Shown here: positions 13,707-41,393 of the stretch, one piece after another
Layout of the letters: each line of letters starts with the position of its first letter
Numbering within the stretch: the stretch's first letter is position 1
From: Promethearchaeota archaeon
GTDB lineage: Archaea; Asgardarchaeota; Lokiarchaeia; Sigyniarchaeales; SOKP01
Reading direction: 5' to 3'
Assembly (NCBI GenBank): GCA_019894975.1
Contig: JAGXNO010000026.1
Span: 1-51,944 of the forward strand
DNA length: 51,944 nucleotides
Notes under the pieces: model-generated
Told to the model about the DNA's origin: nothing
Seen by the model: the letters and a program-made list of their open reading frames with translations, nothing else
Database searches by the model: none
Translations under genes and position numbers: made by a program

Positions 13707-14405
13707 ATGTCTAATATTGAAATAAGAAATCATCCAAAATTTTATAATGTATTTATATCTGGCCCAAAGGGGAAATTCAAATTATATACAAGAAACCTTG
13801 ATAAGGGAAATAGAATCTATGGAGAGAGATTGGTAAATTCAAAAGAAATTGAATATAGAGAATGGGATCCTTACCGAAGTAAGTTAGCAGCATTATTATT
13901 GGAAAATCCTATTACCAACTTTTTATCGGAAGATTTAAATTGCCTTTATTTAGGAGCCTCCTCTGGCACAACAATTTCTCATCTTTCCGATATTGCCTAC
14001 TCAGGAATTATTTATGGTGTTGAATTTGCTGAAAGAAGTATTAGACAGTTAATACAAAGCACATCTAGAAGGAACAATATTATTCCTATATTAGAAGATG
14101 TTCGATACCCTCAAAATTATGCCAAATCAATATTTTCAAATATAGACCTAATTTACCAAGATATATCTCAACCTAACCAAGCAGAAATTGCGATTAAAAA
14201 TTGTAATTATTATCTTAAAAAAGATGGAATACTAATCTTTGCGATTAAATCTCAATCCATTGATAGCATTCGAAAATCTGAGGATGTGTATGCTCAAGAG
14301 AAAAAAATTCTTGAAGAAGCGGGGTATAATATTATTGAAAGTGTAAATATACATCGGTATGCTGCCAACCATATTATATTAATCGTTAAAAGAGGGAATA
14401 CTTAG
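13707..14405 (+). CDS. flpA: fibrillarin rRNA/tRNA 2'-O-methyltransferase
   Basis: YGER, EYREWDPYRSKLAA, LYLGASSGTTISHLSD, YQDISQPNQ. Confidence 0.97.
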   Translation: MSNIEIRNHPKFYNVFISGPKGKFKLYTRNLDKGNRIYGERLVNSKEIEYREWDPYRSKLAALLLENPITNFLSEDLNCLYLGASSGTTISHLSDIAYSGIIYGVEFAERSIRQLIQSTSRRNNIIPILEDVRYPQNYAKSIFSNIDLIYQDISQPNQAEIAIKNCNYYLKKDGILIFAIKSQSIDSIRKSEDVYAQEKKILEEAGYNIIESVNIHRYAANHIILIVKRGNT

Positions 14406-15091
14406 AAAAAATCAGTTATTTTTTTATTATGTAAATCTTCAGCTATTATTTTTCTTATTGTAGCCCACGATTTCCTAGCGAAAGGGGGTGATTTTTTTTT
14501 TTCCTTTATCCATATTCGAAGGAAATCGATTGTTCTTCTATCTGAAGGATATCCTGATCCAAAATCCCCAAATTTTTCCTTTAATTCCTCGATTAATGTA
14601 TCTCGTTTATCTTTAGCCACGATTGAGGCTGCAGATACAATTGGAAAGAGATCATCAGCTTTATGTTTTGAAATGAGTTCATCTGGTTTATAGTCTAACC
14701 GTTTTAAAATAGAATCCCTAAACCTATTTTCAATTACATCAACCGCATCAACATAAATAACACTTGGTTTTAATTCTCTGATGATTTCTGCCATTTTTAA
14801 TTCTTCAAGTTCATTTAAAGTGATTTTATTCTCTTCTCTTTGGTCAATTTCTTCGGGTGGGACTACAATAATTTTAAAAGATTCACATCTTTCTACAATT
14901 AACTTTGCCAATTTACTCCTTTTATTAGCATTTAGTTTCTTAGAATCTTTTACTCCGATCTCAGTTAAATAAGGGAGATTTGCTTCTTTAAAACAGACAC
15001 CACAAAGAACCAGAGGACCAATTACGGGACCTTTTAGGATATAATTCGAAATGAATTAAATTCTCCCAGCCTCGTCTATACCACAAATCAC
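14402..15091 (-). CDS. rnhB: ribonuclease HII, split by a 30-nt intron (join of 15091-15063 and 15032-14402; 219 aa)
   Basis: GTG at 15091 gives MICGIDEAGR, then a 30-nt insert with in-frame TAA, then GPVIGPLVLCGV...GVKDSKKL continuing into the track ORF (YVDA, KADD, VSAASIVAK, GSGYPSD, C-terminal PIP box KKITDFF). Confidence 0.93.
15033..15062 (-). other. putative BHB-type mRNA intron (30 nt) in rnhB
   Basis: mRNA: C-UGGG-AG^A-AUUUAAUUC(AUUUC)GAAUUAUAU-CCUA-AA^A-G. UGGG/CCUA 4-bp helix, two 3-nt bulges, intron hairpin; cutting after bulge nt 2 restores GGG AGA GGT (G-R-G). Confidence 0.85.
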
Positions 15092-15104: not shown

Positions 15105-16106
15105 TTAAGAATCTTGGATGAGTTCGATAAATTCTTCCTCATCATCAACTTGTTCTAAATTCTTTATTTTAATAATATGAATATCCTTTCCTTTTATAGT
15201 TCCTGGAATTCTTACACTATTATCAACAATGTACAATGCTGTTTTATGAAATAAATCATTAAACATCTTTAAACAATTGAAATTTACCTCATTTACTTTC
15301 TTCTGCTCATCAGAGAGAGCTGAAAAAAGAGGATAAAAACCATCACTCCCAACTTTATCGATAGAAGAAAATAAAGATAATTTGAAAGGTACTGAGCCTT
15401 TCTTGTACCAGTAAGAAGATAATCCAATATCATTTACTATAGTTTGAACATGGGATTCGAATTCACTGAGTTCCTTTTCTTGGAGATAATCATTATCTCC
15501 CATCTCATGCTTTACATTCCACTTGAAGATATTAATTTTTTTGAAAATTTCACTATCTTCTAAGATATTTAAAATTTTCCTAGCTATTTCTTCAGAGGGA
15601 CGCATGCTTTCATTTTCATATGAGCAAACGGTTCTCTTAGTTATTCCTAACTTCTCTGATAATTCTTTTCTTGTTATTAAACGTTGTTCTCTTATCTCTT
15701 TCATTAGAACACCATCTAAAAACACAACACCACCACCTCTCTTAGCTAATATATAGGGATATATATTATTTGCAAGAATTTTTTCAAGCGTAGTTAATGT
15801 TATAAAGGGTAACCCATTTCTAACATAAATTGTGTTATCTTCTAAGTTCTGATACCTATTTTTTATACCTATCAACAAGGGTTTAGATTTTAAAATTGTT
15901 GATAAAGACTTAATATCACGTACTAGATCCTGATTTAAATTATCAATATTAGGAAAGACTTTTACACTAAAAACTAAATCATCTCTTTTTACTAAAAGAT
16001 CAAAGCAAAATTTACTTTTTTTTGATCCAAAATTTCCTAAAGAGAAAGTTTCGAAATTAGCCTTTTTCAGCAGACCATCAATTCTTTCAATAACAGTACT
16101 CGACAT
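15105..16106 (-). CDS. archaeal Cro/C1 HTH transcriptional regulator (COG1395-like)
   Basis: CFDLLVKR, VKVFPNIDNL, LEDNTIYVRNG, RGGGVVFLDG, HTH ITRKELSEKLGITKRTVCSYENE. Confidence 0.85.
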   Translation of the reverse strand: MSSTVIERIDGLLKKANFETFSLGNFGSKKSKFCFDLLVKRDDLVFSVKVFPNIDNLNQDLVRDIKSLSTILKSKPLLIGIKNRYQNLEDNTIYVRNGLPFITLTTLEKILANNIYPYILAKRGGGVVFLDGVLMKEIREQRLITRKELSEKLGITKRTVCSYENESMRPSEEIARKILNILEDSEIFKKINIFKWNVKHEMGDNDYLQEKELSEFESHVQTIVNDIGLSSYWYKKGSVPFKLSLFSSIDKVGSDGFYPLFSALSDEQKKVNEVNFNCLKMFNDLFHKTALYIVDNSVRIPGTIKGKDIHIIKIKNLEQVDDEEEFIELIQDS

Positions 16107-18924: not shown

Positions 18925-19686
18925 TTATATTTGGTTTGAAATCGAATTATTTCTAATCTCATTTAAATTTTTTGCTGATCTGCCAATGTAAATGGAGTGC
19001 GCCTTAAGATGTTGATTAATTTTAGTGTAGCTTCCCATCCCTAGAATAGCTCCCTTTTCCACTATTGTACCAGGAGAAATCACGCTAAATGCCCCTATTG
19101 TGCTTCCTTCTTCTAAAATCACTCTTTTGATGATTAAAAATTCTCCTACAATCATAGAACTCATGATGATTGATCCTTCACCAAGAATAACATTATCCTT
19201 AATTATTACGAAATCTGAATCGATATAGCTGTCTAGAACACCACTATTGTATGAAACCTTTACTCCTAGTGTTTTCAAGGCTAGTAATTTTGCCCAAGGT
19301 AAAGGGAAGTAATTAAATATTTTTAAAATCAAACTTTTTAAATTTTTTCTTAGAATGTAGAAAATATAATCTTTATTTTTTAAAGATCTCAAAAAAAATC
19401 CTTCTTTTGGCTTATGAATTAAATTTATAATTATCAAAAACAGTTTTGAAAATAGGAGGAGAAAAAGAATGAAAATTCCATAATAGAGAACAATAGAAAC
19501 GGGCAAAAAACACAATATTACTATAGTTGGGATAAATGAGGAGAAAATATTGAAAAAAAGCGAAAAAATTAGACTTGTTGGGAAAATTGAAAGCCAAATC
19601 AAGAGGATATAAAGCCATAAAAGACTGTAAGGGGTTGTACTGTTGTTTGTCACAATTATATCGTTAATCGGTATGATTATCACCAA
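18925..19686 (-). CDS. membrane protein with left-handed beta-helix (hexapeptide) acyltransferase-like domain
   Basis: Two TM segments, PKEG, then IKDNVILGEGS / LEEGSTIGAFSVISPGT repeats; true start uncertain. Confidence 0.75.
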   Translation of the reverse strand: MVIIIPINDIIVTNNSTTPYSLLWLYILLIWLSIFPTSLIFSLFFNIFSSFIPTIVILCFLPVSIVLYYGIFILFLLLFSKLFLIIINLIHKPKEGFFLRSLKNKDYIFYILRKNLKSLILKIFNYFPLPWAKLLALKTLGVKVSYNSGVLDSYIDSDFVIIKDNVILGEGSIIMSSMIVGEFLIIKRVILEEGSTIGAFSVISPGTIVEKGAILGMGSYTKINQHLKAHSIYIGRSAKNLNEIRNNSISNQI

Positions 19687-21217
19687 TGTTATTATTATAA
19701 TTATACGTTGAATTGGGGCTTAATTTTTCGTTTTTCGAAGTAACAACGAGGGGGAGAATGGTTACATTATTCTCGATTTCTGTTCCTGGAGCAATACAAC
19801 AATTATCTGAAATAGCAACATTATCTCCAATAATGATACGTTTAATAGTTAAATTCTTATCCCACAGATGATTTGCAAGTAATGCTTTTCCCAAATATGA
19901 GTTTCGTCCAACTTTTAAGAACTCCTTTGCAATAAAGCAATTTTCGATTACGGAATCTTTCCCAAATTGACAGTTACCTATGAAATTAAATGCGGGTTTC
20001 ATTAACCACGGAAAGGGGCTCTTTTGTATTTTCCATTTGGCATATCTTAGAAAAAAAGAGCGTTTAAAGTAATTGTTGAAATCAGGGGTTTTATTACTCC
20101 AATGATAGATCCCTTCTTTAGCGGGATTGTTATATTGGGATATTTTATACACTAATTTAGTAAGTAATATGACAACGAATAGATTTACAAGTAAAAGAAT
20201 AATAATAAATAAGGGGGTTATTAAAAGTATTAACAATGTGTGAAGATCTATAAAAACATGGATAATTGTTGGTTTTAGTAAATAAATAGGTAAAATAAAT
20301 TCATTGAAATAATAAAATGTGCCTAATATTGGAATTATATTTGATAAAAAATAGATGATTCCAAAAGTTAGGACGTTTAAGGGTAAATTTTTCACAAATT
20401 TCTCTTCTGAATCGTTGGGAATTGGATTATAAATCTTATCAGAGGGGTTCAAAAATTCCATTTCTTTTCGAATTTTCGTCTGATTCTGGGGAGAATAATG
20501 TAATTTTTCTGCAGGATTCCCAATATAGACTGTATTTGATTCTAAATTTTGGTTAATTTTCGTTACTGACATGGCACCCAATACAGTGTTAGACCCTATA
20601 TGAGTACCTGGGGCAATGAATGAATTCGAACCAATAATTACGTTATCTCCAATTGATATTTTAGTAATAATTAGATGTCCCTTAATTATCATGCTTGATC
20701 TTATAGAACATCCTTGACCAATGCTTATATTGCTTCCTAGTTCGATGAATTCGGTGTCTATATTGCCGTTAGATATATTGTTGGAGTAGTCCGTTTTTAT
20801 TCCTAAAAGCTTCAATATAAGATTATGGATAAATGAAGAAGGAATTAAATTTGCTGTCCATATCGGTAATTTCTTAACAACTGCTCTTAAACTCCAATAA
20901 TAATAGTCCTTATCGATTCTTTCCATTCTAAACTTCCCTTGTTTTGGTTCATGAAGATTTTTGATAATAATAAGCCCCAGCTTTGATAAAAGAGTTGAAG
21001 TTATGATAAGTGTTAAGAATCCAAAACAAATTATTAAGGGGAAAAGATAATAAAAAAGTAAAATAAAATCTTTAATTAAGGTCCAAAATACAAAAATTTC
21101 AATTAGAACTGGTAAGAGAGACCCCCAAATAATTAAAATGTAGACAAGAAGAAATTTTTTAGATGCCAATGTATTTGTCGTAAAAAGGCCATCTTGAATT
21201 GAGACCGGGGAAGACAA
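19664..21217 (-). CDS. membrane protein with two TM + hexapeptide-repeat modules
   Basis: IGDNVIIGSNSFIAPGTHIGSNTVLG and IGDNVAISDNCCIAPGT, each preceded by TM helices and PKQG/PAKEG. Confidence 0.78.
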   Translation of the reverse strand: MSSPVSIQDGLFTTNTLASKKFLLVYILIIWGSLLPVLIEIFVFWTLIKDFILLFYYLFPLIICFGFLTLIITSTLLSKLGLIIIKNLHEPKQGKFRMERIDKDYYYWSLRAVVKKLPIWTANLIPSSFIHNLILKLLGIKTDYSNNISNGNIDTEFIELGSNISIGQGCSIRSSMIIKGHLIITKISIGDNVIIGSNSFIAPGTHIGSNTVLGAMSVTKINQNLESNTVYIGNPAEKLHYSPQNQTKIRKEMEFLNPSDKIYNPIPNDSEEKFVKNLPLNVLTFGIIYFLSNIIPILGTFYYFNEFILPIYLLKPTIIHVFIDLHTLLILLITPLFIIILLLVNLFVVILLTKLVYKISQYNNPAKEGIYHWSNKTPDFNNYFKRSFFLRYAKWKIQKSPFPWLMKPAFNFIGNCQFGKDSVIENCFIAKEFLKVGRNSYLGKALLANHLWDKNLTIKRIIIGDNVAISDNCCIAPGTEIENNVTILPLVVTSKNEKLSPNSTYNYNNNIGDNHTD

Positions 21218-40783: not shown

Positions 40784-41393
40784 ATGGGTCGTCGTAAAAG
40801 GAAACAAGTCTCACCTAAAAGAGTTAAAAGAGTACCTAAAATTTTCACCTGCCCTGAATGATAAAATTAATTCCTAATTTTTCAAGGATTGCGGTGAAAA
40901 GAGTGTTAAGGTTACTGATATTAAGAAGAAAGGTGCTTTTGCTACTGTGAAATGTGGAAATTGTGATTTGACTAAGGTAGTGCTAGTAAATTCTATTTCA
41001 GAACCAGTTGATGCTTTTGGAGACTTTATAGATATTTTTTATGCAGATCAGGAGCTCCAACGGTTAGAGAAGCGAATTCAGAAATTAAAAGATGAAAACG
41101 AATATGGGGAACTTGCATTATCCTACTCAATTTTATCAGATCTATGTAAGGTCAAGGCTGGAATATTACTAGAAGAAGAAGATGTTAATTTGGATGAAGT
41201 GAATGAGTGGAAGATGAGAAATGAGCATTATAAAAACCTTGAAAAGGAGGCATTATTGAAGCTTGAAACTGATGAATTAGAGAGAGGTTTAAAAACTGAT
41301 GAAGAATCATTATTCGCAGAAAGAGATTCCAAGATAAAGAAAGAAAGAAAAATAGAAGATATATTTGATGATCCAGGCTTTTTAGAATTTTAG
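40784..41393 (+). CDS. elf1: transcription elongation factor Elf1 with C-terminal extension, split by a 31-nt intron (join of 40784-40858 and 40890-41393; 192 aa)
   Basis: ATG 40784 (GGTG SD): MGRRKRK...PKIFTCPE, 31-nt insert with TGA TAA, then CGEKSVKV...VKCGNC...SEPVDAFGDFID, the full Elf1 signature. Confidence 0.92.
40859..40889 (+). other. putative BHB-type mRNA intron (31 nt) in elf1
   Basis: Exon-exon stem UUUUCACC-U-GC / GC-GGUGAAAA; central helix CCUG/AAGG (3 pairs + G.A); bulges AA^U and AU^U; intron hairpin AAAAUUA(AUUCC)UAAUUUU; excision gives GAA TGC (CPEC). Confidence 0.85.

What the first reader, a model, noticed from the sequence alone, without database searches (positions are those of the whole stretch)
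15033..15062. 30-nt intron in the catalytic DEAGR|GP motif of RNase HII
The minus strand reads GAC GAG GCT GGG AG[AATTTAATTCATTTCGAATTATATCCTAAA]A GGT CCC GTA ATT GGT CCT. Unspliced translation stops at TAA after 11 residues. Fold: 4-bp central helix UGGG/CCUA, bulges AGA and AAA, intron stem with one U.U mismatch and an AUUUC loop. Canonical cuts remove exactly 30 nt and give DEAGRGPVIGP. The exon-side stem is weak (one C-G pair), so this is a relaxed BHB form. The ORF track misses the first 50 residues, including the catalytic D and E.
Basis: partly seen in the sequence, partly recalled or inferred. Interest (0 to 1): 0.92.

Follow-up and report, generated by a model that had tools for sequence, protein, structure and literature searches.

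The report
tRNA-type intron splits Asgard RNase HII
The only RNase HII gene found in this Lokiarchaeia-type (Asgard) archaeon is broken inside its active-site motif by a 30-base hairpin shaped like a tRNA intron, so its messenger RNA very probably has to be cut and rejoined by the tRNA-splicing enzymes, which the papers I could search show inside a coding sequence for one archaeal gene only (cbf5).

Summary
Confirmed. A 30-nt insert (15062-15033, minus strand) with an in-frame TAA splits rnhB, the only RNase HII found in the genome. Removing it at the bulge-helix-bulge (BHB) cut sites gives a 219-aa enzyme with its catalytic D6/E7. About 83 of 126 genomes of the family show a break here. I read 74 inserts at base level: same site, 28-31 nt, four of them frameshifting, all 73 fully parsed ones with a stop (TAA, TAG or TGA). 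None of 21 orthologues from other families has it. The central helix covaries with exon wobble bases (93% paired, 25-50% when slid), and the interrupted genes stay under purifying selection (dN/dS 0.17; intronless 0.16). Readthrough, pseudogene and assembly error are rejected. One correction: the exon-side helix is about 6 bp with a bulged G, not one pair. Two EndA subunits and RtcB are encoded. A second such intron lies in elf1 (40859-40889). No spliced RNA was seen, so splicing is inferred (0.92). Works like the crenarchaeal cbf5 intron. This scan has noted the same rnhB intron before on other genomes.

The parts
15063..15091 (-). rnhB exon 1: GTG start, 9 codons plus the first two bases of the Arg codon; encodes catalytic D6 and E7
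   Evidence: D6/E7 invariant in 108 family sequences; aligns with the DEAGRG motif of solved archaeal RNase HII structures
15033..15062 (-). 30-nt BHB intron, in-frame TAA at 15058-15056
   Evidence: single copy in the genome
14402..15032 (-). rnhB exon 2, third base of the Arg codon then 209 codons and the stop; holds D105 and D136
   Evidence: TIGR00729 197.6 bits over cut-off 123.3; only PF01351 match in the genome
15065..15068 (-). 5' strand of the 4-bp central helix (exon; Ala and Gly wobble bases at its two ends)
   Evidence: covaries with 15038-15035
15062..15064 (-). 5' 3-nt bulge; predicted cut between 15063 and 15062
   Evidence: BHB rule; the register is also fixed by keeping Arg in relatives whose intron begins with T (L083, L114, L118)
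15039..15061 (-). intron hairpin: 9-bp stem (one U.U) and 5-nt loop closed by C-G
   Evidence: 88.5% of cells paired, 8 of 9 pairs with changes on both sides
15035..15038 (-). 3' strand of the central helix (intron)
15032..15034 (-). 3' 3-nt bulge; predicted cut between 15033 and 15032
   Evidence: BHB rule
15024..15031 (-). 3' strand of the exon-exon helix (pairs with 15075-15069; G15030 bulged)
   Evidence: 5.8 pairs on average in intron-bearing genes, 4.7 in intronless family genes, 3.8 in outgroups
15105..16106 (-). upstream HTH transcription regulator (PRK04140-like, below cut-off); ends 13 nt before the rnhB start, probably the same transcript (inferred)

Best explanation
The insert is a genuine tRNA-type (BHB) intron in the rnhB pre-mRNA. 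SHOWN from sequence and comparison: the insert sits at one site and phase across the family, always blocks the frame, and keeps a BHB fold by compensating changes; the two exons encode an intact enzyme under purifying selection; the genome encodes two EndA paralogues and RtcB. INFERRED from established archaeal tRNA splicing: the transcript folds into exon helix, bulge, 4-bp helix, bulge, intron hairpin; a heterotetrameric (alpha-beta)2 EndA cuts after the second base of each bulge (after 15063 and after 15033); RtcB joins the 2',3'-cyclic phosphate to the 5'-OH, rebuilding the Arg codon and the DEAGRG motif; the 30-nt piece is released, perhaps as a circle. Unspliced mRNA yields an 11-residue peptide, so all RNase HII activity (ribonucleotide removal from DNA, RNA:DNA hybrid cleavage) depends on splicing. 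History (inferred): one gain near the base of this Lokiarchaeia family and several precise losses.
For: Removal restores DEAGRG and a 219-aa frame. Only PF01351 copy. About 83 of 126 family genomes show a stop or frameshift here (my count of the table); 74 read at base level share the site, lengths 28, 29, 29, 31 and 30 in the rest. In-frame stop in 73 of 73, of all three kinds. Central helix 93% paired against 25-50% when slid 1-3 nt. The pair at the Gly wobble takes U-G 34, C-G 11, G-C 11, U-A 8 with one unpaired case in 65; 65 cells change on both sides against 15.5 in shuffles, 0 of 500 reach it (kin inflate this test). That exon base changes 13 times and its intron partner 9 times on the tree while staying paired in 70 of 71. 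dN/dS 0.17 with intron, 0.16 without; D6, E7, D105, D136 invariant. Glu codon is GAG in 72 of 73 intron genes, 21 of 37 intronless, 18% elsewhere in the gene. EndA alpha- and beta-like genes and RtcB present; Asgard EndA is reported as (alpha-beta)2 with the L1 loop linked to broad specificity (PMC5829648). An independent contig (93% identical) spans the insert without a gap (record 13).
Against: No spliced transcript or peptide observed. The BHB conformer lies 6.8 kcal/mol above the predicted minimum. 19 of 69 distinct junctions have one mismatch in the central helix. The exon-helix codon bias rests on only 5 well-supported independent contrasts and is not significant. Cleavage by an Asgard EndA has not been measured here, and a recent preprint states that none of its newly identified Asgard tRNA inserts has been shown spliced in a cell (10.64898/2026.10.13.758758).
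Confidence: 0.92

Rival explanations
1. Translational recoding: stop-codon readthrough or a reassigned stop puts 10 extra residues into the motif.
For: 69 of 73 inserts are 30 nt and in frame; 62 have the stop at the same codon.
Against: 28-, 29-, 29- and 31-nt variants shift the frame yet keep intact exons. Stops are TAA, TAG and TGA, and several inserts carry two. The insert would fall between E7 and the conserved G-P turn of the active site. Its bases covary as a helix rather than as codons.
Confidence: 0.01
2. Ribosomal bypassing: the ribosome hops over the hairpin, as in T4 gene 60, without RNA cleavage.
For: A hairpin and a stop follow the Arg codon; hopping tolerates any gap length.
Against: No matching landing codon: the last triplet of the insert varies (AAA, ACA, ATA, GTA, AGG). 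The stop does not directly follow the take-off codon and lies at five other positions in 11 loci. Only 10 codons precede it, too few for a nascent-peptide signal (own knowledge). What is conserved is the exact BHB geometry, including exon-intron pairs.
Confidence: 0.02
3. The insert is removed from RNA, but by another route (self-cleavage, an IRE1-like or unknown nuclease), or precisely excised from DNA in some cells.
For: Constraint exceeds what cleavage of a BHB seems to need: fixed length, slow evolution (p-distance 0.094 against pS 0.31), C-G closed 5-nt loop in 63 of 65. Precise intronless versions occur repeatedly.
Against: Two 3-nt bulges around 4 bp with cuts after the second bulge base predict the only register that keeps Arg in all relatives. 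No terminal repeats and no second copy in the genome. At 30 nt it is too short for a group I or II ribozyme.
Confidence: 0.03
4. Pseudogene, split gene or assembly artefact.
For: The genome is a MAG with 8.55% contamination; public annotations list truncated proteins starting in or after the insert (53 of 120 hits).
Against: Same insert in 74 separately assembled genomes and in an independent contig; purifying selection equal to intronless genes, exon 1 included (24.5 synonymous against 3.5 non-synonymous differences); no second RNase HII, and no PF13456 RNase HI-type gene found in a 95% complete genome. The next start codon is 50 residues in and would lose D6/E7.
Confidence: 0.02

Closest known systems
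cbf5 pre-mRNA intron of Crenarchaeota (Desulfurococcales, Sulfolobales; Watanabe 2002, Yoshinari 2006, Yokobori 2009 PMC2738675)
   Same: Short BHB intron inside a coding sequence, placed in the catalytic motif so that splicing is obligatory; often imperfect BHB; hetero-oligomeric EndA; ancient gain with lineage-specific precise loss; missed by gene callers.
   Different: Other gene (RNase HII), other site (Arg of DEAGRG, after base 2; cbf5: catalytic Asp, after base 1), other lineage (Asgard). Not alone in its genome: elf1 in the same window has one. This genome's cbf5 has an open 344-codon frame. cbf5 splicing is shown by cDNA; this one is not.
Archaeal tRNA and rRNA BHB introns cut by EndA and joined by RtcB, abundant in some Asgard classes (bioRxiv 10.64898/2026.10.13.758758)
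   Same: Same motif, predicted chemistry and size range; ARAGORN calls introns in 12 of 30 tRNAs of this genome.
   Different: The host is an mRNA, so the exon halves of the motif must also encode protein and are held by wobble bases. No sequence donor found in the genome.
BHB intron in the 5' UTR of Haloferax HVO_1309 (PMC7714728)
   Same: EndA-processed intron in an mRNA.
   Different: 46 nt, in an untranslated leader, does not interrupt a frame.
HAC1/XBP1 unconventional mRNA splicing in eukaryotes (own knowledge; RtcB link also cited)
   Same: Short intron removed by a protein nuclease and closed by a tRNA ligase, switching a protein on.
   Different: IRE1 cuts two stem-loops, not a BHB; regulation is proven there and untested here. 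Analogy only.

Membership tests
Archaeal BHB intron (EndA substrate) | 4-bp central helix between two 3-nt bulges on opposite strands | tested here: met
   4/4 in the window; 93% paired across 69 junctions against 25-50% slid; compensating changes
Archaeal BHB intron (EndA substrate) | Flanking helices (intron-side and exon-side) | tested here: met
   intron stem 88.5% paired; exon helix of about 6 bp with one bulged G, so slightly relaxed
Archaeal BHB intron (EndA substrate) | Cuts after the second base of each bulge restore the host molecule exactly | tested here: met
   full-length 217-225 aa proteins restored for 28-, 29-, 30- and 31-nt inserts
Archaeal BHB intron (EndA substrate) | Host encodes EndA and an RNA ligase | tested here: met
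   two TIGR00324 EndA genes over cut-off, RtcB E 6e-169; the alpha/beta assignment and L1 loop are read by eye and from PMC5829648
Archaeal BHB intron (EndA substrate) | Intron is actually excised and exons ligated in the cell | tested here: inconclusive
   no true RNA run holds the stretch; laid contigs show no 30-nt gap and the three metatranscriptome-labelled runs do not cover the junction
Archaeal BHB intron (EndA substrate) | Cleavage by purified EndA | not testable with these tools
   needs an in vitro assay
Archaeal RNase HII (TIGR00729, PF01351) | Family score over cut-off and the acidic tetrad D-E-D-D | tested here: met
   197.6 bits on exon 2 alone; D6, E7, D105, D136 invariant after splicing; their catalytic role is from own knowledge of the family
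Group I / group II self-splicing intron | Ribozyme core of over 100 nt | tested here: not met
   28-31 nt single hairpin
MITE or other mobile repeat | Multiple copies, terminal repeats, target duplication | tested here: not met
   one copy; next best genomic match 22 of 30 in AT-rich DNA

The most novel reading that the evidence does not exclude
In this Lokiarchaeia family, EndA/RtcB splicing of mRNAs is routine across housekeeping genes, and the rnhB intron is also a control point: its fixed length, conserved loop and retained stop codon let splicing efficiency set the level of RNase HII, tying genome ribonucleotide repair to tRNA-splicing capacity, an archaeal counterpart of HAC1/XBP1-type regulation in the sister group of eukaryotes. 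The multi-gene part alone I put near 0.85 (two genes tested here); the regulatory part is what lowers the figure.
Probability: 0.2. Interest if true: 0.93.

Novelty: new member of a known kind. Interest (0 to 1): 0.78.

Why it matters
In the library I could search, archaeal splicing inside a coding sequence is documented for cbf5 only (PMC2738675; PMC7714728 still calls it the one example in 2020), and no paper on an rnhB or Lokiarchaeia mRNA intron turned up (subscription journals are mostly not covered). A conserved, obligatory intron in a genome-maintenance enzyme of Asgard archaea would show protein-catalysed mRNA splicing in the prokaryotic relatives of eukaryotes, apart from the group II/spliceosome line, and gives a sharp test (one junction, one peptide, one in vitro assay). 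It also matters for annotation: public RNase HII entries from these genomes lack the catalytic residues (53 of 120 top hits), so other Asgard genes called truncated or absent may hide 30-nt introns.

Tried and rejected
1) Search for spliced RNA: no RNA holder listed. Four runs laid: three labelled metatranscriptomic but probably DNA, none covering the junction; one contig stops at 15063 and another at 15071 at depth under 5, which I treat as coverage gaps, not evidence. 2) Two exact-pattern scans of metagenome contigs for the spliced junction of the two main clades of the genus: no match; uninformative for splicing. 3) No intact protein at 90% or more identity to an intron-bearing gene among the top 120 homologues, so no cDNA-derived form there. 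4) De novo genome-wide BHB scan: 25,408 loose motifs, no excess of frame restoration in register over off register; it cannot count introns without homology, and it missed the elf1 intron. 6) Independent-contrast tests of codon bias: direction agrees, only 5 supported pairs, not significant. 7) Donor search for the intron in the genome: none. 8) Sigma-70-type promoter/terminator scan: nothing, and unsuited to archaea. 9) Literature search for residue-level RNase HII mutagenesis returned unrelated papers. 10) The tree is the quick version with 46 open forks; 14 presence changes (at least 5 forced) cannot by themselves separate repeated loss from repeated gain.

Full report
Observation. On the minus strand a GTG at 15091 reads 11 residues to a TAA at 15058-15056. 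Removing 15062-15033 gives a 219-aa frame ending at the stop shared with the ORF track's 169-aa call, with the motif DEAGR|GPVIGP. Exon 2 alone scores 197.6 bits on TIGR00729 (cut-off 123.3) and this is the only PF01351 match in a 95% complete genome. The nearest named proteins come from Lokiarchaeota/Promethearchaeota, and neighbours are nop5, fibrillarin, elp3 and an HTH regulator by their sequences (the first three named by eye).

Structure. The RNA can form a 4-bp central helix (15068-15065 with 15038-15035), two 3-nt bulges, a 9-bp intron stem with one U.U and a 5-nt loop. Shuffling the insert reproduces helix plus stem in 2.2 of 10,000 trials. Against this, the strict BHB conformer is 6.8 kcal/mol above the predicted minimum, and loose BHB shapes occur 25,408 times in this genome with no excess of frame-restoring cuts. 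The fold alone therefore proves little.

Distribution. In 135 genomes of the family, 127 have the gene; by my count of the table 83 show a stop or frameshift at the start of the domain, 43 are clean and one is a fragment. I read 74 inserts at base level: all follow the second base of the Arg codon (Lys in one). Of the 73 fully parsed, 69 are 30 nt, two 29, one 28 and one 31; the 74th is a 30-nt insert followed by an assembly gap. The 41 intronless family genes read have a clean junction. None of 21 orthologues from other families of the order and class has the insert. On a quick protein tree presence changes 14 times, at least 5 forced by strong branches. One gain plus precise losses is the simplest reading, since the inserts are alike in sequence, but the tree does not prove it.

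It is removed, not translated. All 73 inserts carry an in-frame stop, TAA, TAG or TGA, sometimes two, and the four non-triplet inserts shift the frame while leaving exons that join to 218-225 aa. The interrupted genes have dN/dS 0.17 over 23 disjoint pairs against 0.16 over 11 intronless pairs; exon 1 shows 24.5 synonymous and 3.5 non-synonymous differences; D6, E7, D105 and D136 are invariant. The protein also fixes the cut site independently of the fold: shifting one base upstream gives Lys in the window and Thr or Ile in some relatives, and shifting one base downstream gives Ser where the intron starts with T (L083, L114, L118). The only register that keeps the residue everywhere is the one the BHB rule predicts.

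Covariation. Over 69 distinct junctions the central helix is 93% paired, against 25-50% when slid by 1-3 bases. On 65 aligned 30-nt cases, 87.5% of cells pair, 65 cells change on both sides (shuffled mean 15.5, 0 of 500; relatedness inflates this control), and 8 of 9 intron-stem pairs show two-sided changes. The clearest pair joins the Gly wobble base in exon 1 to an intron base: U-G, C-G, G-C and U-A all occur, and the window's G-C is one of the compensated forms. On the tree the exon base changes 13 times and its partner 9 times, with 70 of 71 still paired. Exon wobble bases that build the exon helix pair in 81, 100 and 97% of intron-bearing genes against 49, 59 and 59% of intronless ones; the direction holds in independent contrasts but only 5 are well supported, so this is suggestive.

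Machinery and mechanism. The genome encodes two EndA paralogues of 202 and 200 aa, the first with a recognisable Tyr-His-Lys triad by eye, and RtcB; ARAGORN calls introns in 12 of 30 tRNAs. Asgard EndA is described as (alpha-beta)2 with the L1 loop that goes with relaxed substrates (PMC5829648). The inferred path is cleavage in both bulges, ligation by RtcB, and translation of the repaired mRNA. One independent contig spans the insert without a gap, which rules out a local assembly error.

Unexplained. The intron is more constrained than cleavage alone seems to need: exact length, p-distance 0.094 against pS 0.31, a C-G closed 5-nt loop in 63 of 65. About six lineages of 30-nt introns that lack the common stop have one at another codon, each with a chance of 0.47-0.67 by shuffling (product near 0.04, suggestive only). 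Selection to terminate unspliced mRNA quickly is a plausible cause (inference). A regulatory role is possible and untested.

Context and comparison. A second insert of the same build splits the zinc-binding CxxC of elf1 at 40859-40889; 3 of 29 relatives have one at the same site with different sequence, 26 have none. The closest published case is the crenarchaeal cbf5 intron, also in a catalytic motif, also gained once and lost repeatedly (PMC2738675); PMC7714728 adds a 5' UTR case and calls cbf5 the only other example. I found no paper on rnhB or Lokiarchaeia mRNA introns. It works like the cbf5 intron and meets every sequence-level criterion of a BHB intron; the in-cell criterion is open. 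Earlier notes of this scan report the same rnhB intron on other genomes and similar inserts in other genes; they are unchecked notes and I do not count them as support, apart from the elf1 lead, which I tested.

Verdict. Real feature; BHB pre-mRNA intron at 0.92; new member of a kind with one published coding-sequence member; interest 0.78.

Noticed in passing
window 40859-40889 (+): 31-nt BHB-type insert splitting the CxxC motif of elf1 (PRK14892-like); central helix 3/4, good exon helix; same-site inserts in L146, L149 (31 nt) and L156 (30 nt), absent in 26 other relatives.
   Followed up: partly
G000:C171:3803-4111: Second elf1 copy, 90% identical, with a 195-codon open frame like the intronless relatives; paralogue or bin contamination (8.55%). 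Not read at base level.
   Followed up: no
L007, L010-L033, L050, L068, L084, L085 (exon 2, second codon): One clade changes the conserved Pro of DEAGRGP to Ser; both residues allow the exon helix. Genus g18 has Cys there and no intron.
   Followed up: partly
public proteins P0001-P0120: 53 of the top 120 homologues lack the DEAGRG motif; many start at a spurious Met inside the intron, yet are named ribonuclease HII.
   Followed up: yes
L061 (G106): The one genus member found without the intron; sister to intron-bearing L008, L009, L066 (support 93), with a different Arg codon and a precise junction: a likely loss or gene replacement.
   Followed up: partly
L034 (G021:C43): 30-nt intron followed by a run of N and a scrambled exon 2 start: scaffold artefact in that assembly.
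   Followed up: yes
window 14402-14405: rnhB (-) and the fibrillarin-like gene (+) converge with overlapping stop codons.
   Followed up: no
G000:C90:16156-16497: cbf5-like gene lies in an open 344-codon frame, so no stop-bearing cbf5 intron is seen in this genome.
   Followed up: partly
G003:C18, G017:C9, G146:C1, G067:C43, G077:C51, G080:C21: Some family genomes carry a second, distant PF01351 match in 277-587-codon frames (RNase HIII-like or fused), not seen in G000.
   Followed up: no
window 18925-21217 (-): Two adjacent membrane proteins with hexapeptide-repeat-like acyltransferase segments, by eye.
   Followed up: no
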